A program made the translations under genes and the position numbers. The notes under the pieces were generated by a model that was not told the origin of the DNA, made no database searches, and worked only from the letters and a program-made list of their open reading frames with translations. A DNA stretch of 64,000 nt from a virus (Duplodnaviria; Heunggongvirae; Uroviricota; Caudoviricetes), in IMG/VR virus record IMGVR_UViG_2713896898_000005; one strand, given 5' to 3'. Below are positions 28,900 to 35,933 of this stretch, one piece after another. Within the stretch, counting starts at the first letter, position 1; every line of letters begins with the position of its first letter.

Positions 28900-28916
28900 A
28901 TTGCTCTAATAAATAT
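28900..28916 (+). promoter_or_regulatory. C1 operator upstream of the uhr-hrdC-dmt operon
   Basis: ATTGCTCTAATAAATAT, 16/17 to consensus. Confidence 0.7.
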
Positions 28917-29272
28917 TGTTTTTTATGTCGTGTTTTCGGTACTATTCAGCCATCGCCCTTCAATGGGCATTTGTTTGGAGTCGTCAGATGCAGATGGAGC
29001 TAATAAGCCGCAAGGAGTTCGATAGCCGTGTAACCAGCGGTGAACTCGACAACTTGCAGGCTATCAAGGTGAAAGAAGGCTTTTGCCTCATTGGGAATCA
29101 GAGCGGAACAAATCGCGTTTTTATGCTTCGCCGTACGGATTTGAAGCCATTTGTCTGGAAGAACGAAATTGGTCCCAGCTCATACGCTCAAACGAGGGGG
29201 GGCCACAACCTGGCATTTTTCTACAAAGACGAGCTTTCTGTGGTTGATATTCAAGGGTTACAACATGTTTAA
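28916..29272 (+). CDS. Hypothetical protein upstream of hrdC (uhr-like)
   Basis: ORF between the C1 operator and hrdC; real start probably an internal Met. Confidence 0.4.
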
Positions 29273-30170
29273 GCACTGGAAAAACATTACTATTTATAAA
29301 CTTTCTCGTGAGGCGGATCTGACCGACTTAGAAGATAAAACGAAAATGATCCTTTTCACGCCATGCGGTAGTCAGGATATGGCCAAGTTCGGTTTTGTAT
29401 CGCCATTTGGTGATAATTCCGAAGTTATCGCTATGCATGGAAATGGTTTTATCCTTGTTGAAGCAAAGCGCGAAACAAAAATTCTTCCCCCGCCGGTTAT
29501 CCAGCGAGCTATTCAAGAAAAAATTGAAAAAATTGAGCAAGAACAAGCGCGTAAACTGAAGAAAACAGAGAAGGACTCCCTGAAAGACGAAGTTCTGCAT
29601 TCTCTTCTGCCACGGGCTTTTTCAAAGTTTTCTGTTATCCAGGCGATCTACGACGGTTCAACTAAACGTATCTATATCAATGCCAGCGCGCGGCAGGCAG
29701 AGGATATGCTCGCGCTTATGCGTAAATCTCTGGGTTCTCTTCCTGTTGTTCCCCTAAGTGTTGAAAATCCCATTGAATTAACGCTGACCGACTGGGTACG
29801 TGATGGTAGTGCTCCACAGGGATTTCAAATGGGGGATGCGGCAGAACTTAAGGCAGTGCTTGAGGATGGCGGTATTGCCCGAGTGAAAAAGCAGGATTTG
29901 GGAAGCGATGAAATTTCCACACACCTGGAAGCTGGCAAGCTCGTCACTAAGTTGGCACTCGACTGGCAGAACCGCATTAAATTTACACTGGACCATAACT
30001 TCAGCCTTACCAGCGTCAAATTTGCGGATGAATTGCTTGAGCAGAACTCTGATATTGATAGTGAAGATGTTGCGCAGCGACTGGACGCAGATTTCTTCCT
30101 GTTGACCAGTGAAATTTCGTGCCTGGTTGATGCTCTGGTAAATGCCCTTGGTGGAGAGGCTAAGCAGTGA
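29265..30170 (+). CDS. hrdC: RdgC-like recombination-associated protein
   Basis: From internal Met [13 protein letters not shown]...; close to E. coli RdgC throughout ([11 protein letters not shown]..., [12 protein letters not shown]...). Confidence 0.9.
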
Positions 30171-33100
30171 AAGAGCTGTGCTATGGATCTGTTTGCAGTG
30201 GAATTGAAGCCGCGAGTATTGCCTGGGAACCGTTGGGTATGCGTCCGGCGTGGTTTGCTGAAATCGAGTCTTTTCCATCGGCCGTTCTTGCGCACCGCTG
30301 GCCCCATGTCGCCAACCTTGACGACATGACTAAACTTGCCAAAAAAGTCCTGGCTGGGGAAATCGAATCCCCTGACGTGCTCGTCGGGGGAACACCATGT
30401 TTTACCGCGGGGCATATGGTTCTTTGTAAAAATGGTTATAAACCAATAGAAGATGTTTGCCCTGGCGATTACGTAGTCAGTCATCTCGGGCGGTTACAAC
30501 AAGTAAAAAGAGTTGGTTCAAAAATAGCTAATACGGGGTTACTTAATGCCGTTGGGCAGCCTTTAGGTATAAGAACAACCAATGACCATCCCTTCCTGGC
30601 TGTTCGGTGGAAAGCCCAAAACACCCGGAAAAATGGCACATATTTTAAGAGAGAGTTGTTGTCTGAACCGGAATGGCGAGCAGCATGTGATATGCCAGGA
30701 TATCAATGGTGCGCTCTAACTAATTTCAATATTGCATCTCCAGATATTTGTTCTCGGTTCTTGTCTGAAGAACAGGCTATATATCTTGCGGGCGCTTATG
30801 TTGGCGATGGATATATTAGGAGATGGAGAGGTAAATCTAAGAAGGCGGTTGTTTTTGGCATAAATTGCCAGAAATTGAGAAAGTTTCATTGTCGCATACC
30901 AGAAAACATATTTTCCGTGGCAAGAGAAATCCGAGGGAGCATCAAAGTAACCTTGAATGATACGTGTTATGCCAATTGGCTTAATGAACATTTTGGCGAG
31001 TTAAGCCATGCTAAGCGTATCCCTGCATGGGTGATGTCGCATCCATTGCGTCATGTGTTTTTACAAGGCTATCTTGATACTGATGGGACACCAAGTGGTA
31101 AAGCGGGATTTAGAATTAATAGTGTTAGTCCTGCGCTTGCTTGGGGCGTTGCGGGGGTGTCACAGACTTGTGGTTATGTTTCTTCGGTCAGCTTTATTGA
31201 AGTTGAGCCCAAAAAAGTGATCGAGGATCGCGTGGTAAATCAACGGAATTATTATCAGGTAACAATCTGCCCGCAGAAATTGTCACGTAAATCAAGATTG
31301 GCTCATGGAATGCTTTTACGAACAGTCAAAGAGTTTAAATCGGTAGGCCTAGATACTGTATACAACATAGAAGTCGAAGGTGATCATTCCTATATTCTCA
31401 ATGGTGCGGTGGTCCATAACTGTCAGGCATTCAGTATCGCGGGATTACGTGGTGGGCTTGATGATGAGCGTGGCGCGCTAACTTTAAAGTATGTGGAGCT
31501 TGCAAATGCAATTGACGACAAACGGGCTGAGTCATTTCTCAAACCAGCCGTTATCGTCTGGGAAAATGTCCCAGGAGTCTTGTCATCGGCAGATAACGCC
31601 TTCGGATGTTTCCTTGCCGGATTGGCTGGAGAAGATGCGCCATTTGAACCAGGTGATCGACCTGAATCAGGAAAAAGTAACGCGTTCTGGCGGTGGGATG
31701 GCAAAACCGGTTGCCATGCTCCAAAGTGGCCGCAGTGTGGTTGTATTTATGGACCGCAGCGAAAGGTGGCCTGGAGAATCCTTGATGCCCAATACTTCGG
31801 AGTGGCACAACGACGCCGACGCGTGTTTGTTGTCGCAAGTGCTCGAACAGACCTCGATCCCGCAACGGTACTTTTTGAGTTCGAAGGCGTGCGCCGGAAT
31901 ATTGCGCCGAGCCGAAAAAAGAAGGAAATCGCTTCCGCCATTATTGCAAATGGCGCTGCAATCAGTGGCGAAAGCCTAAATTCATGCCTACACGCTGACA
32001 TTACCCCCGGTATGAAATCGACGAAAGCCGTAAACGCTTTCAGGATGGCGGCATTTGGGGAATATATTGGCGATGAAACCGCATCGACAGTAAAGGCGAG
32101 AGACTTTAAAGATGCCACTGACCTTGCAGTTTTTAGCAGCACAGGAGCAGGTTTTTGGTCAGAAGGGCATGGTACATTGCGGGCACGTGAGCAAGAAAGC
32201 CATGAGCATCTTGTTACATTGGCTTTTCCTGAGCGTATGAGCGGTACACAACATGCTGCAACTAAGAATACTTCACCATCTTTAATGGCCAAAAATACAA
32301 CAGCCGTTTGCTATGACGTAGGAAACGCAGCAGTAGCTGTCCGCCGTCTTACCCCTGTCGAATGTGAAAGACTGCAAGGTTTTCCTGATGGGCATACGTT
32401 GATCCCGACGGAAAAGCGTAAAAAAGTTACTTCAGATGAACTGGCATACCTTCGCAATCACTATCCAGATTTAAGCGAAGAAGAGGCCGCGATGCTTGCA
32501 GCTGACGGACCGCGTTACAAAGCGATCGGCAATAGCATGGCGATACCAGTAATGCGATGGATTGGTGAGCGGATTATTAAGGCTGCATATCAGCAGGCAA
32601 AAAATCATGAAGCAACAGAACGGAGAGTTAAGCTAACGGCAGAATTTGACCGTCCCATATTTAAATGGGTCGGCGGAAAATTTGGTGTTCTTGAACAAAT
32701 CTTTAGGCATTTACCTGACGGAAAGCGCCTGATCGAGCCTTTCGTTGGTGGCGGAGCTGTCTTCATAAATGCCGGATATCAAGAAAATCTGCTAAATGAT
32801 GTGAATGCTGACCTGATTAACTTTTACAGGACTCTGCAACGTGAGGGACATTCACTTATCACTCTGGCGCATCGGTTTTTCCAGGACTACAACACACAGG
32901 AAGGATACCTGGCAGTACGGAATGCGTTTAACAAACAAGCCTATGATGATTTACATCGTGCAGCAGCGTTTTTGTTCCTGAACCGACATTGTTTTAACGG
33001 ATTGACGCGTTACAACCAGGCCGGTGAGTTTAATGTTGGTTATGGGAAGTATAAAACTCCGTATTTCCCATTACAGGAGATGGAAGCCTTCCTCGGTGCT

Positions 33101-33454
33101 GAAGGGCGTTCTGAGTTTGTATGTGGTGATTTTTCAGCGGTGATTGAAGCTGCCGGAGAAGGAGATGTCATCTTTTGCGATCCTCCGTATGAACCGCTCC
33201 CCAATACAGAGGGGTTCACAAACTATTCCGGTCATGACTTTAAGTTTGAAGAGCAAAAACGCCTGGTATCTCTGCTAATGGATGCTCATCGCCGAGGTGC
33301 AAAGATCCTCATTACTAATAGTGGTGCGCCAAACATCAGGGAGCTTTACCAAGACAGTGGCTTCAGAGTGGAACCTCTTTTTGCCAGACGTTCTGTGTCT
33401 TGTAAGGGGAACACTCGTGGTGTAGCTCATGACGTTATTGCTATATTGCTCTAA
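30167..33454 (+). CDS. dmt: Dmt bifunctional DNA methyltransferase (Dcm-like C5 domain plus Dam-like N6 domain), intein-containing precursor
   Basis: C5-MTase motifs SVCSGIE (I), [12 protein letters not shown] (IV, interrupted), VIVWENVPG (VI); Dam motifs EPFVGGGAV and DPPYEP; 1095 aa = about 754 aa + 341-aa insertion. Confidence 0.9.
30398..31420 (+). mobile_element. Intein with LAGLIDADG homing-endonuclease domain, inside dmt
   Basis: Starts with Cys (CFTAGHMVL), ends VVHN followed by Cys +1; block B TNDH; LAGLIDADG-like [11 protein letters not shown] and [10 protein letters not shown]; excision restores [12 protein letters not shown]. Confidence 0.85.
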
Positions 33455-34132: not shown

Positions 34133-34208
34133 GATGGTGTAGCTCAGCGGTTAGAGCAGTTGGCTGTTAACTAACTGGTCGGTGGTTCGAATCCACCCAC
34201 CATCGCCA
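34133..34208 (+). tRNA. tRNA-Asn (anticodon GTT)
   Basis: 76-nt cloverleaf: acceptor GATGGTG/CACCATC, anticodon loop CTGTTAA, T-arm GGTGG-TTCGAAT-CCACC, 3' GCCA. Confidence 0.85.
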
Positions 34209-34344: not shown

Positions 34345-34431
34345 CACAACAGGTAAGGGTATTTTGCGACGTCGGAGATCGCCGAGCTTGGCAGAGGGTT
34401 CGAATCCCTCCGAAGTACCCTTACCGTTGTG
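34345..34431 (+). repeat. tRNA-like structured repeat unit B
   Basis: 16-bp imperfect outer stem CACAACAGGTAAGGGTA / TACCCTTACCGTTGTG around a T-arm-like hairpin GAGGG-TTCGAAT-CCCTC. Confidence 0.4.
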
Positions 34432-34557
34432 ATGAATGCGCAGGCTGATGCGCGAAAGACATTGCAGCTATTGCGGAAAAGAGCTGTCCGGCGGGGCAAT
34501 TAAACGCCCGTGAGAGTCTGAAATAACCGCAAGCCGGAGATCAGCACCGGTCATCAC

Positions 34558-34646
34558 AACACAACAGGTAAGAGCATTTGTAGAGTTCGACTCTCTACCG
34601 TGGGCTTTTTCCCGCGATGCGAGACGTGAATGCTCTTTCCGTTGTG
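34558..34646 (+). repeat. tRNA-like structured repeat unit C
   Basis: Outer stem ACAACAGGTAAGAGCATT / AATGCTCTTTCCGTTGTG around the T-arm-like hairpin GTAGAG-TTCGACT-CTCTAC. Confidence 0.4.
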
Positions 34647-34799
34647 GTGAATGCGCGTTGCTGGCGCGCAAGTCCGCCCTATGGCAACGAGGCGGCGTAG
34701 TAAATATCGATGCCTCAGTCATCAAGCGCACTGACCGGCCTTATGGGCTATGAAAAAAAGAGGCGCAGTCGGAGATCAGCACCGACCACCACAATCATT

Positions 34800-34886
34800 G
34801 GAGAGTAGGGAGTATGGCGCTCAAGCGGTCTTGAAAACCGTCCCATTGCGCAAGCGATGATGGTTCGATTCCATTACTCTCCACCA
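34800..34886 (+). tRNA. Type II tRNA, probably tRNA-Ser (anticodon TGA), with atypical D-arm
   Basis: Acceptor GGAGAGT/ACTCTCC plus ACCA; anticodon arm GCGGT-CTTGAAA-ACCGT matches E. coli tRNA-Ser(UGA); long variable arm; T-arm GATGG-TTCGATT-CCATT. Confidence 0.5.
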
Positions 34887-34896
34887 GCGCAACGTT

Positions 34897-34990
34897 AAGA
34901 GTATTTGGCTAATTAAGCGAATGCCGGAAGCAGAACCGGATCACCAAATGCGTACAGGCGTCATCGCCGCCCAGCCAGCCAAGTGCTCTT
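34897..34990 (+). repeat. tRNA-like structured repeat unit D
   Basis: Outer stem AAGAGTATTTGGCT / AGCCAAGTGCTCTT followed by the same conserved trailer box as units B and C. Confidence 0.35.
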
Positions 34991-35107
34991 ACCATTGCGG
35001 TGAATTCGGCTAAGCGCACGCGGAACAGTTAAAACAATCCTCCTTGATGATTAAACATTCCGGCGTTAATTGTTAACTGGTTAACGTCACCGGGAGGCAC
35101 CCGGCAC

Positions 35108-35124
35108 CGCAATCTAATAAATAT
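35108..35124 (+). promoter_or_regulatory. C1 operator-like site upstream of tciA
   Basis: CGCAATCTAATAAATAT keeps the TCTAATAAAT core. Confidence 0.4.
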
Positions 35125-35148
35125 GTCACTTTTATTGAGGGATAACCA

Positions 35149-35583
35149 ATGTTCGGTAAATTGTTCGGCAAGAAAGTCGCTTCTGCAAAAGTAGAGCTGA
35201 AAAAAGTTGAGAATCGCGATCTGATGGAGGCCATTATCGGTGGCTGTTTGTTGGTGTCTGCCGCTGATGGTGAAATCAAAAAAGAAGAAACAGCGAAACT
35301 TGATCAGCTTATCCGCTCTAATCCGCGTCTTAGTCATTTTGGTAACGAAATTACCGCAACAATTACCCGCTTTACCGAGCAACTGGAAGCTGGCTTCCGT
35401 GTTGGTCGCATGAATATCCTTCGCGAAATTGAAGATATCAAAAACGACCCAAAAGAAGCGGAAGAAGTATTCGTTAACATGCTGACGATTGCAGAAGCGG
35501 ACGGTGAAATCGAGCCAGCAGAACACAAAGTACTGGAAGAAGTAGGCCGTCGTTTAGGTCTTCGTGTGGAAGATTATCTGTAA
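35149..35583 (+). CDS. tciA: TerB-like protein
   Basis: 144-aa ORF; TerB-like helical pattern; followed by two tiny membrane ORFs and tRNA-Ile as in P1 tciABC. Confidence 0.75.
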   Translation: MFGKLFGKKVASAKVELKKVENRDLMEAIIGGCLLVSAADGEIKKEETAKLDQLIRSNPRLSHFGNEITATITRFTEQLEAGFRVGRMNILREIEDIKNDPKEAEEVFVNMLTIAEADGEIEPAEHKVLEEVGRRLGLRVEDYL

Positions 35584-35747
35584 TGGCAAGCAAGGCACGT
35601 ATCGCAATCGCCATTGGTTTTCTCTTGCTGTCCGTGCTGGTGGATTTCACCAGCACAATCCTGTCAGTTTTATCGGACGGGGCGTTGGTGGCAGTGGCTG
35701 TAACATTGGTATGGCCGATATTTAAAACAGCTTCGAAGGATCAGTGA
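35583..35747 (+). CDS. tciB: Small membrane protein
   Basis: 54-aa hydrophobic ORF; start overlaps the tciA stop (TAATG). Confidence 0.55.
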   Translation: MASKARIAIAIGFLLLSVLVDFTSTILSVLSDGALVAVAVTLVWPIFKTASKDQ

Positions 35748-35857: not shown

Positions 35858-35933
35858 GGCCCTTTAGCTCAGTGGTTAGAGCTGGCGACTCATAATCGCA
35901 CGGTCACCGGTTCAAGTCCGGTAGGGGTCACCA
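35858..35933 (+). tRNA. tRNA-Ile2 (anticodon CAT, lysidine type)
   Basis: 76 nt; anticodon arm GGCGACTCATAATCGC and D-arm match E. coli ileX; 3' ACCA. Confidence 0.85.

What the first reader, a model, noticed from the sequence alone, without database searches (positions are those of the whole stretch)
30398..31420. 341-aa LAGLIDADG intein inserted in the PCQ catalytic motif of the Dcm-like domain of Dmt
The dmt ORF is 1095 aa, whereas I remember P1 Dmt as about 754 aa. The extra 341 aa sit exactly between GGTP and CQAFSIAG, the motif IV that carries the catalytic Cys of C5-cytosine methyltransferases. The insert has the intein signature: first residue Cys (CFTAGHMVL), block B TNDH, two LAGLIDADG-like motifs ([21 protein letters not shown]), C-terminal VVHN followed by Cys +1. 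Splicing would recreate [12 protein letters not shown] with the ENV motif downstream. The host protein's C5 activity would therefore depend on protein splicing, and the element would be an independently mobile homing unit inside a phage-plasmid anti-restriction/methylation gene. I do not know of an intein reported in P1-family dmt.
Basis: partly seen in the sequence, partly recalled or inferred. Interest (0 to 1): 0.85.

Follow-up and report, generated by a model that had tools for sequence, protein, structure and literature searches.

The report
Intein splitting P1-type Dmt methyltransferase
The DNA methyltransferase gene (dmt) of this P1-like phage-plasmid is interrupted, exactly at its cytosine-methylation catalytic cysteine, by a standard self-splicing protein element (an intein with a homing endonuclease) that is common in natural P1 relatives but seems never to have been described there.

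Summary
The dmt ORF (30167-33454, +) encodes 1095 aa. Phage P1 Dmt has 754 aa and lacks exactly the 341 aa encoded by 30398-31420, which sit between GGTP and CQAFS (motif IV).

- **Intein features:** the insert has Cys1, TNDH, two LAGLIDADG motifs with their acidic residues, a block F/G ending HN, and Cys+1. It passes the Hint_2, LAGLIDADG_3 and intein C-terminal profile cut-offs. A confident model (pLDDT 88) matches PI-SceI and VMA-type inteins.
- **Frequency:** it occurs in about 26% of P1-like plasmids in PLSDB, in 31% of dmt-carrying complete E. coli genomes, in phage RCS47, and in a laboratory P1vir stock. It is never annotated as an intein.
- **Selection:** all 31 copies examined are intact. 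The splicing domain is strongly constrained (ω≈0.09). The endonuclease domain is not distinguishable from neutral (ω≈0.64).
- **Mobility signs:** it sits on two Dmt variable-region types and two replicon types, is far less diverged than its N-extein, and has lower GC.
- **Wider lineage:** at least 150 protein clusters carry related inteins at the same Pro|Cys site of diverse C5 methyltransferases.

Verdict: a genuine canonical intein and a new member of a known kind. Splicing and homing are inferred, not shown.

The parts
28900..28916 (+). C1 repressor operator Odmt (ATTGCTCTAATAAATAT), which controls the uhr-hrdC-dmt operon
   Evidence: It is identical to the annotated P1 operator Odmt (annotation; alignment).
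28916..28945 (+). Pdmt sigma-70 promoter (-35 TTGTTT, -10 TACTAT)
   Evidence: It aligns to the annotated P1 Pdmt. The -10 differs by one base, TACCAT in P1.
30167..33454 (+). dmt precursor ORF of 1095 aa: a C5-cytosine methyltransferase domain interrupted by the intein, followed by a Dam (N6-adenine) domain
   Evidence: ORF list. Pfam PF00145 and PF02086, and NCBIfam TIGR00571.
30167..30397 (+). N-extein of 77 aa, carrying motif I ([11 protein letters not shown]) and ending ...VGGTP (Pro at -1)
   Evidence: Alignment to P1 Dmt; junction codons ACA CCA|TGT.
30398..31420 (+). Intein, 341 aa, class 1, with an embedded LAGLIDADG endonuclease
30398..30400 (+). Cys1 codon (TGT), the N-terminal splicing nucleophile (block A, CFTAGH)
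   Evidence: Cys is residue 1 in all 152 full-length relatives and in all 31 P1-family copies.
30578..30589 (+). Block B, TNDH (T-x-x-H)
   Evidence: It is conserved as T..H across the family and identical in all 31 copies.
30728..31279 (+). Homing endonuclease domain (approximately intein residues 111-294; the boundaries are my own estimate from the model)
   Evidence: Secondary structure of the AF2 model. Pfam LAGLIDADG_3. Absent from the mini-intein P0023 at the same site.
30785..30811 (+). LAGLIDADG motif 1 (LAGAYVGDG; putative catalytic Asp137)
31061..31087 (+). LAGLIDADG motif 2 (LQGYLDTDG; putative catalytic Asp229)
31358..31420 (+). Blocks F and G ([21 protein letters not shown]), ending with the His-Asn of the C-terminal splice junction
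   Evidence: TIGR01443 intein_Cterm above its cut-off. It aligns to the Spl DnaX mini-intein C-terminus. The terminal Asn is invariant.
31421..31423 (+). Cys+1 codon (TGT). This residue is both the intein's +1 nucleophile and the catalytic Cys of methyltransferase motif IV (P-C-Q)
   Evidence: Cys is at +1 in 148 of 152 relatives.
31421..33454 (+). C-extein: the rest of the C5 domain (CQAFS, ENV, QRRR, variable region, [18 protein letters not shown]) and the Dam domain (about 32666-33367)
   Evidence: Pfam stretches 533-748 (PF00145) and 834-1067 (PF02086); alignment to P1 Dmt.

Best explanation
The 341 codons at 30398-31420 encode a canonical class 1 intein with an embedded LAGLIDADG homing endonuclease. 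It is inserted in frame between Pro77 and the catalytic Cys of motif IV (P-C-Q) of the C5-cytosine methyltransferase domain of the P1-type bifunctional methyltransferase Dmt.

Proposed mechanism, all inferred from established intein chemistry:
1. The operon is transcribed from Pdmt once the C1 repressor is lifted.
2. The roughly 120-kDa precursor undergoes an N-S acyl shift at Cys1.
3. The acyl group is transferred to Cys+1 (trans-thioesterification).
4. Asn341 cyclises and an S-N shift follows.
5. The products are a 754-aa Dmt with an intact GGTPCQAFS motif and a free intein of about 38 kDa.

The same cysteine therefore serves first as the splicing nucleophile and then as the methyltransferase nucleophile. 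C5 activity should require splicing, whereas the C-terminal Dam domain need not. The free intein, if its endonuclease is still active, would cut the uninterrupted site (...GGT ACG CCT|TGT CAG GCA...) in an intein-less dmt of a co-resident or co-infecting P1-like element. Repair from the intein-bearing copy would then copy the intein in, together with short flanking tracts. The element belongs to a large intein lineage dedicated to this Pro|Cys site in C5 methyltransferases, most of it found here on viral contigs.
For: **Shown by the sequence and tools**
- There is a clean 341-aa (1023-bp) insertion relative to P1, P7-type and other dmt alleles.
- Curated profile hits for Hint_2, LAGLIDADG_3 and intein_Cterm.
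- Cys1, T-x-x-H, both x-D-G motifs, block F, the terminal Asn and Cys+1 are conserved in relatives down to about 28% identity.
- The AF2 model (pLDDT 88, pTM 0.87) has as best PDB matches PI-SceI (E=1.8e-18), the TliVMA and PhoVMA inteins (TM up to 0.61), PI-PfuI and PI-PkoII.
- In-silico splicing restores a continuous PF00145 match through motif IV (profile positions 5-119), and the score rises from 105 to 129 bits.

**Evidence that it splices**
- All 31 P1-family copies are 1023 nt, with no stop or frameshift and with every key residue intact.
- The splicing domain shows 10 synonymous against 3 nonsynonymous variants (ω≈0.09, binomial p=5e-5 against neutrality).

**Evidence for mobility**
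- The intein is present in 127 of 497 PLSDB records and 151 of 492 dmt-carrying complete E. coli genomes.
- It sits on both the 754-aa and 672-aa Dmt backbones, giving 1095 and 1013 aa, and on both IncY-typed and p0111-type plasmids (PLSDB labels the latter IncHI1B).
- Inteins differ by at most 15/1023 nt, while N-exteins of intein-bearing alleles differ by up to 21/231 nt.
- Synonymous flank haplotypes are linked to intein presence: CCA against CCT at -1, and a C-extein tract that ends at about +116 in RCS47.
- Intein GC is 42.6%, against 55% for the N-extein and 48% for the rest of dmt.

**Regulation and lineage**
- The C1 operator and Pdmt are conserved upstream.
- 180 cluster representatives match at E<=1e-30. 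Of 152 full-length matches, 137 have Pro at -1, 148 have Cys at +1 and 129 continue 'CQ'.
- Six of seven divergent exteins tested are PF00145.
Against: - No experiment is available. Splicing, endonuclease activity, homing and even m5C activity of the Dmt C5 domain are all untested here.
- The endonuclease domain is not distinguishable from neutral evolution (7 synonymous against 16 nonsynonymous variants, ω≈0.64, p=0.23). It may be decaying, although it is intact in every copy.
- P1-like plasmids are highly mosaic. Ordinary homologous recombination could therefore produce the patchy distribution and flank mosaicism without endonuclease-driven homing.
- From my own recollection, not tested here: Pro at -1 is unfavourable for N-terminal cleavage in several engineered inteins. 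Splicing efficiency cannot be assumed, although 137 of 152 relatives share Pro at -1.
- The Hint_2 score is only at the Pfam threshold, and the Intein_splicing model is below its threshold.
- The polymorphism counts are small and were not corrected for phylogeny.
Confidence: 0.85

Rival explanations
1. The intein splices, but its endonuclease is inactive or decaying. It persists by vertical inheritance with the plasmid and moves between dmt alleles only through the general homologous recombination that is common among P1-like elements. This would be the late stage of the homing cycle.
For: The endonuclease domain has ω≈0.64, not different from neutral and significantly higher than the splicing domain (Fisher p=0.014). 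The flanks show ordinary mosaicism. The wider family includes decayed forms: the mini-intein P0023 at the same site, and P0009 with Asp-to-Asn in motif 2.
Against: All 31 copies keep a full-length endonuclease domain with both putative catalytic Asp residues and no stops or indels. The intein is much younger than the divergence of its N-exteins and sits on several backgrounds. Synonymous changes immediately at the junction are tightly linked to intein presence, as expected from co-conversion.
Confidence: 0.3
2. The insert is a dead intein that no longer splices. The 1095-aa protein works only as a Dam methylase, and its C5 domain is permanently disrupted.
For: The C-terminal Dam domain is intact and should be independent of the insert. 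A review states that the P1 dmt methyltransferase is essential only in Dam-minus hosts, through Dam methylation of pac sites (PMC12707154). The C5 function may therefore be dispensable. Pro at -1 can hinder splicing (my recollection, not tested).
Against: There is strong purifying selection on the splicing domain (ω≈0.09, p=5e-5). Cys1, TNDH, HN and Cys+1 are invariant in 31 copies, and the same residues are conserved across the lineage. The C5 motifs of the extein remain intact in intein-bearing alleles.
Confidence: 0.07
3. The element has been co-opted for a function. Either splicing is conditional, so that C5 methylation is switched on post-translationally. Or the endonuclease, expressed only after C1 derepression, serves as a weapon against competing intein-less P1-like phage-plasmids.
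For: Expression is tied to the C1-controlled Pdmt. The Cys1/Cys+1 pair could in principle form a disulfide (inference only). The intein is held at an intermediate frequency of 26-31% rather than fixed or lost.
Against: There is no direct evidence. The endonuclease domain shows relaxed rather than positive or purifying selection. The anatomy is fully explained by an ordinary selfish intein.
Confidence: 0.06
4. The insert is an assembly artefact, or a free-standing endonuclease gene wrongly read as part of dmt.
For: None found.
Against: The same in-frame 1023-bp insert occurs in 133 plasmid records, 5 phage records, 151 complete E. coli genomes and about 24 IMG/VR contigs. Hint blocks flank the endonuclease domain, and there is no internal stop or frame change.
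Confidence: 0.01

Closest known systems
PI-SceI (yeast VMA1 intein) and archaeal VMA-type, PI-PfuI and PI-PkoII inteins
   Same: Bipartite architecture: a Hint splicing domain split by a two-motif LAGLIDADG endonuclease. Cys1, a C-terminal Asn and Cys+1. These are the best structural matches to the model (E=1.8e-18 to 8e-10, TM up to 0.61).
   Different: Only 11-16% sequence identity. The host protein is different (ATPase, RNR or polymerase rather than a DNA methyltransferase). This intein is smaller (341 aa against 454 or more), and its activity is untested.
Inteins in actinobacteriophage DNA methylases (Kelley et al. 2016, PMC5050341; Gosselin et al. 2023, PMC9957025; bioRxiv 10.1101/2025.01.02.630785)
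   Same: Phage-borne inteins that interrupt DNA methyltransferase genes, with a patchy distribution and evidence of horizontal transfer. The 2025 survey lists C-5 methylase (IPR001525) among intein hosts.
   Different: The described cases are N6/N4 methylases (PF01555) of actinophages. I found no description of the motif IV Pro|Cys site, of Enterobacterial hosts or of P1-family Dmt. Whether the actinophage C-5 inteins occupy the same site was not checked.
Phage P1 Dmt (NC_005856 gp069, 754 aa)
   Same: The spliced product would be collinear with P1 Dmt and 94% identical to it. It has the same operon (uhr-hrdC-dmt) and the same C1 operator and promoter.
   Different: The reference P1 lacks the intein. 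It also has Trp instead of Gly two residues before the Pro (VWGTPCQ).
Same-site inteins in other C5 methyltransferases (Mannheimia haemolytica P0010, Pseudonocardia P0022, IMG/VR loci L037-L093)
   Same: Homologous inteins (28-56% identity) inserted at the identical Pro|Cys position of motif IV.
   Different: The exteins are different and often very divergent (stand-alone methyltransferases, CTNHS and CKHFS types). Some are decayed: a truncated C-extein, a mini-intein, and Ser at +1.

Membership tests
Class 1 intein | In-frame insertion in a conserved host protein for which intein-less homologues exist | tested here: met
   P1 Dmt and 370 of 497 PLSDB alleles lack exactly 341 aa / 1023 bp.
Class 1 intein | Cys or Ser as the first residue (block A) | tested here: met
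   Cys1 (CFTAGH). Cys is residue 1 in all 152 relatives.
Class 1 intein | Block B T-x-x-H | tested here: met
   TNDH at residues 61-64, conserved as T..H in the family.
Class 1 intein | C-terminal (His-)Asn followed by Cys, Ser or Thr at +1 (block G) | tested here: met
   VVHN|C. TIGR01443 scores 25.9-28.9 bits against a cut-off of 15.6. HN in 134 of 152 relatives and Cys+1 in 148 of 152.
Class 1 intein | Hint (horseshoe beta) fold | tested here: met
   Pfam Hint_2 at its threshold. The model matches intein structures, including the mini-inteins gp41-1 and Ssp DnaB and the Prp8 intein.
Class 1 intein | Autocatalytic protein splicing that yields ligated exteins | not testable with these tools
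   Only indirect evidence: ω≈0.09 on the splicing domain.
Class 3 intein | WCT triplet (block B Trp, block F Cys, block G Thr), usually without a Cys1/Ser1 nucleophile | tested here: not met
   Cys1 is present. The block F position is Asn (VYNIEV), not Cys. Block G is VVHN.
LAGLIDADG homing endonuclease (two-motif, monomeric) | Two LAGLIDADG motifs, each with a conserved acidic residue | tested here: met
   LAGAYVGDG and LQGYLDTDG. Pfam LAGLIDADG_3 scores 30.5 bits against 22.5.
LAGLIDADG homing endonuclease (two-motif, monomeric) | The alpha-beta-beta-alpha-beta-beta-alpha repeat fold | tested here: met
   The model's helices and strands over residues 134-291 match I-SceI, I-Tsp061I and the PI-SceI endonuclease domain.
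LAGLIDADG homing endonuclease (two-motif, monomeric) | Site-specific cleavage of the intein-less allele, and homing | tested here: inconclusive
   The population pattern is compatible with homing, but ω≈0.64 in this domain and background recombination leave it open.
C5-cytosine DNA methyltransferase (PF00145), for the extein | Conserved motifs I, IV (PCQ), VI (ENV), VIII (QRR), IX and X (GNS) in order | tested here: met
   PF00145 scores 105 bits in the precursor and 129 bits after in-silico splicing, with a continuous match through motif IV. Motifs can be read.
C5-cytosine DNA methyltransferase (PF00145), for the extein | m5C methylation activity | not testable with these tools
   The P1 annotation itself says 'perhaps at C5 cytosine'.

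The most novel reading that the evidence does not exclude
The intein is more than a passenger. Its endonuclease is made only when C1 repression is lifted, during lytic growth, induction or superinfection. At that moment it could cut and convert, or destroy, the dmt locus of competing intein-less P1-like phage-plasmids, including those of the compatible IncY and p0111 groups that can share a cell. That would give the carrier a competitive edge and explain a stable frequency of about 30%. In addition, or instead, splicing at the unusual Pro(-1)/Cys1/Cys+1 junction could be conditional, making m5C methylation a post-translationally timed activity.
Probability: 0.1. Interest if true: 0.7.

Novelty: new member of a known kind. 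Interest (0 to 1): 0.45.

Why it matters
- **P1 biology:** P1 is a classic model phage and the archetype of phage-plasmids. An unannotated intein in roughly a quarter to a third of its natural relatives, and in a lab P1vir stock, is a gap in annotation. PGAP calls the protein only a 'Dam family methyltransferase'.
- **E. coli as an intein-free host:** about 3% of complete E. coli genomes carry a native intein. That is relevant to the common assumption (my recollection) that E. coli is intein-free.
- **Site choice:** the intein splits the catalytic P-C-Q motif and reuses the methyltransferase's catalytic Cys as its +1 nucleophile. This is a clean example of intein targeting of active sites.
- **Protein engineering:** a lineage that natively splices after Pro at -1 could be useful.
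- **Evolution:** at least 150 same-site clusters in diverse phage C5 methyltransferases offer material for studying homing cycles.
- **Testability:** the lab P1vir stock makes splicing, homing and methylation tests immediately feasible.

Tried and rejected
- **PDB sequence search.** A sequence-only search gave only weak hits (Spl DnaX mini-intein E=0.0012, PI-PkoII E=0.012). A structure prediction plus Foldseek was needed.
- **Literature.** Ten full-text searches found no report of this intein. Papers that contained both 'intein' and 'cytosine methyltransferase' or 'phage-plasmid' turned out to be irrelevant: reference-list hits, or inteins in NrdA or helicase. The library holds only open-access papers, so an earlier report cannot be excluded.
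- **Empty site with intein-type flank.** A scan of IMG/VR for ...ACA CCA|TGT CAG..., which would indicate precise intein loss or a pre-insertion allele, found a single hit. It was an unrelated stand-alone C5 methyltransferase, not a P1-like element.
- **Class 3 intein:** rejected, because there is no WCT triplet.
- **Bacterial intein-like (BIL) domain:** rejected, because of the endonuclease domain, HN plus Cys+1, and the existence of intein-less alleles.
- **Artefact:** rejected on recurrence.
- **PADLOC on the neighbouring variable region:** no hit.
Full report
**1. Observation**

The window has one long ORF at 30167..33454 (+) of 1095 aa. Translation of 30398-31420 in frame gives 341 residues without a stop, from [10 protein letters not shown] to ILNGAVVHN, followed by CQAFSIAG. 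The opposite strand is full of stops.
- TNDH at intein residues 61-64
- LAGAYVGDG at residues 130-138
- LQGYLDTDG at residues 222-230
- VVHN followed by Cys
- ENV downstream

The reference P1 dmt (NC_005856, gp069) is 2265 nt, or 754 aa. A protein alignment shows a single clean 341-aa gap between GTP and CQAF, with 94% identity elsewhere. At the DNA level, intein-less alleles lack exactly 1023 bp. The junction reads ...ACA CCA|TGT TTT...CAT AAC|TGT CAG... in the window and ...CCT|TGT CAG... in empty alleles.

**2. What it is**

Profile searches give these hits:

| Model | Score (bits) | Curated cut-off |
|---|---|---|
| Pfam LAGLIDADG_3 | 30.5 | 22.5 |
| Pfam Hint_2 | 28.5-29.3 | 28.4 |
| NCBIfam TIGR01443 (intein C-terminal region) | 25.9-28.9 | 15.6 |
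| Pfam Intein_splicing | 18-22 | 35.8 (not reached) |

The flanks are PF00145 (C5 methylase) and, further downstream, PF02086/TIGR00571 (Dam).

An AlphaFold2 model of the intein with short extein stubs was built on an alignment of 15 homologues. It is confident (pLDDT 88, pTM 0.87). Its best matches among solved structures are all LAGLIDADG inteins: PI-SceI (1ef0, 1vde, 1jva; E=1.8e-18 to 5e-16), the TliVMA and PhoVMA inteins (TM up to 0.61), PI-PfuI and PI-PkoII. Free-standing LAGLIDADG enzymes and mini-inteins follow. A sequence-only PDB search was weak.

Removing the 341 residues in silico raises the PF00145 score from 105 to 129 bits. It also yields a continuous match across profile positions 5-119, that is, through motif IV.

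The element is therefore a class 1 intein. The +1 Cys is the catalytic Cys of the methyltransferase's P-C-Q motif. It is not a class 3 intein, because there is no WCT triplet and block F reads VYNIEV.

**3. Distribution**

The intein DNA (at least 95% identical) is found in:
- 133 PLSDB plasmids: Escherichia 118, Salmonella 14, Shigella 1. The best matches are Escherichia albertii P1-like plasmids at 99.9%.
- 5 phage records: RCS47, vB_EcoM-Ro157c2YLVW and OP279344.

A query spanning the N-extein, the intein and 480 bp of C-extein gave these counts:

| Collection | Records or genomes with dmt | With the intein |
|---|---|---|
| PLSDB plasmids | 497 records | 127 (about 26%) |
| Complete E. coli genomes | 492 of 5426 genomes | 151 (31%, about 2.8% of all genomes) |

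The annotations read 'Dam family site-specific DNA-(adenine-N6)-methyltransferase' or 'DNA methyltransferase'. Only some fragments are named 'Hint domain-containing protein'. OP279344 is the genome of a laboratory P1vir stock (bioRxiv 10.1101/2022.09.09.507302).

**4. Evidence bearing on function**

I examined 31 P1-family copies: the window, 6 database loci and 24 IMG/VR loci. All are 1023 nt with no stop or frameshift. All keep Cys1, TNDH, the two Asp-Gly motifs, HN and Cys+1. There are 19 haplotypes and the overall pN/pS is 0.26.

I split the intein at residues 111-294, using my own boundaries taken from the model and from the mini-intein P0023. The result:

| Domain | Synonymous | Nonsynonymous | ω | p vs neutral |
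|---|---|---|---|---|
| Splicing (1-110, 295-341) | 10 | 3 | ≈0.09 | 5e-5 |
| Endonuclease (111-294) | 7 | 16 | ≈0.64 | 0.23 |

The two domains differ (Fisher p=0.014). This is the pattern expected of an intein that must splice for the host protein to be useful, while its endonuclease is under weak or intermittent selection. The counts are small and were not corrected for phylogeny.

**5. Evidence bearing on mobility**

- **Backbones.** Dmt comes in at least three lengths without the intein (754, 672 and 862 aa, differing in the variable region of the C5 domain). With the intein it comes in two (1095 = 754+341 and 1013 = 672+341).
- **Replicons.** Intein-bearing alleles occur on plasmids typed IncY and on the p0111 type, which PLSDB labels IncHI1B.
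- **Divergence.** Inteins differ by at most 15/1023 nt. The N-exteins of intein-bearing alleles differ by up to 21/231 nt, for example window against L007.
- **Junction markers.** All intein-bearing alleles have CCA as the last N-extein codon, and all seven intein-less alleles sampled have CCT. A C-extein haplotype from +24 to about +106 is linked to the intein. In RCS47 it switches to the 'empty' haplotype at about +116, which looks like the end of a co-conversion tract.
- **An exception.** One intein-less allele (L008, the 862-aa type) has intein-type flanks apart from the -1 codon.
- **Composition.** Intein GC is 42.6%, against 55% for the N-extein, 48% for the rest of dmt and 47% for the window.

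These observations fit homing with co-conversion. They do not exclude ordinary recombination among these mosaic plasmids.

**6. Regulation**

The C1 operator Odmt (ATTGCTCTAATAAATAT, window 28900-28916) and Pdmt are conserved upstream of uhr-hrdC-dmt. Precursor synthesis, and hence endonuclease production, should therefore follow C1 derepression. This is an inference.

**7. The wider lineage**

- **First protein search.** Relatives of 47-52% identity appeared in other PF00145 proteins, including Mannheimia haemolytica (578 contigs). Relatives of about 30% identity appeared in actinobacterial-type methyltransferases and in a Parvibaculum protein. A mini-intein lacking the endonuclease domain (P0023) sits at the same site.
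- **IMG/VR scan.** It confirmed 405 relatives. In 50 of the 57 loci I parsed automatically, the intein (328-368 aa) lies at ...[GS]P|CF...HN|C[QTKIL]xxS. The seven loci that the automatic parse missed show the same PC...HNC junction in the printed sequence.
- **Extein check.** Six of seven divergent exteins tested after in-silico splicing are PF00145, with E from 4e-24 to 9e-60.
- **Exhaustive search.** The search of 1.84 billion cluster representatives found 180 with E<=1e-30. Of 152 full-length matches, Cys1 is universal. Pro is at -1 in 137, Cys is at +1 in 148, 'CQ' follows in 129, and ENV lies within 90 aa in 123.

The window's intein is thus one member of a large, mostly viral lineage dedicated to the Pro|Cys site of C5-methyltransferase motif IV.

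**8. Comparison with what is known**

Inteins in phage DNA methylases are known:
- N6/N4 methylases of mycobacteriophages (PMC5050341).
- An actinophage methylase family (PMC9957025).
- A 2025 survey lists C-5 methylase (IPR001525) among actinophage intein hosts.

None of my ten full-text searches found a report of an intein in P1, Punavirus or phage-plasmid dmt, or a description of the motif IV site. The library is open-access only, so absence of a report is not proven.

**9. Verdict**

The element is a canonical intein in a host gene where it appears not to have been described, so I rate it a new member of a known kind.

- **Shown here:** the anatomy, fold, insertion site, distribution and selection pattern.
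- **Inferred:** splicing, dependence of C5 activity on splicing, endonuclease activity and homing.

Interest is moderate. There is nothing mechanistically new. But the intein is an overlooked and frequent feature of a model phage family and of E. coli genomes, and a lab phage stock is available for experiments.

Noticed in passing
window 49370-55474 (ORF 49910..53548 +; ORF 54360..54986 +): P1 carries res/mod at this position, and the closest E. albertii plasmid (NZ_CP117591.1) carries a type I hsdMSR system. This window instead has a 1212-aa inverse-autotransporter adhesin (IAT_beta E=1e-108, four Big_1 repeats, Invasin_D3) and a DDE_3 transposase fragment. There is no PADLOC hit. An intimin/invasin-like adhesin on a P1-like phage-plasmid may be worth a separate look.
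   Followed up: partly
window 34133-34208, 34800-34886, 35858-35933: The tRNA set downstream of dmt is Asn(gtt), Ser(tga) and Met/Ile2-type(cat). P1 and RCS47 have Asn and Thr adjacent at this place. The stretch 34364-35619 is not collinear with the closest E. albertii plasmid.
   Followed up: no
L001 (NC_005856) codon 74 of dmt; compare window 30386-30388: The reference P1 Dmt has Trp (TGG) where the window and the 12 other alleles examined have Gly (GGG/GGA), two residues before the motif IV Pro: VWGTPCQ against VGGTPCQ. This may be a lab-strain change in a conserved motif residue of the C5 domain.
   Followed up: no
dmt variable region, about window 31900-32350; loci L003, L006, L008, L011, L013: The C5 domain of Dmt exists in at least three variable-region (presumably target-recognition) types, giving spliced lengths of 754, 672 and 862 aa. 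They assort independently of the intein. This suggests different m5C specificities among P1-like elements.
   Followed up: partly
L003 (OP279344.1): A laboratory 'P1vir' stock (88,362 bp, labelled del res del mod) carries the intein and the 672-type variable region. It therefore differs from the reference P1 at dmt.
   Followed up: partly
P0010; L049 and L050 (IMG/VR): The Mannheimia haemolytica same-site intein (seen on 578 contigs) is followed by only 20 C-extein residues (CQSDKGGTVKASGGGFEWRE, then a stop). The methyltransferase there appears truncated while the intein ORF is intact.
   Followed up: no
L057 (IMG/VR), P0080; also P0023: Some lineage members have Ser at +1 (HN|SQGFS), so the spliced methyltransferase would lack its catalytic Cys. 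P0023 is a mini-intein at the same site without an endonuclease domain. P0009 has Asn in place of the second putative catalytic Asp, and NN instead of HN.
   Followed up: no
L012 5136-5711 and L013 4890-5711: In two intein-less P1-like plasmids, a TnpB-family RNA-guided endonuclease gene lies about 370 bp downstream of dmt. It is absent at that place in the window.
   Followed up: no
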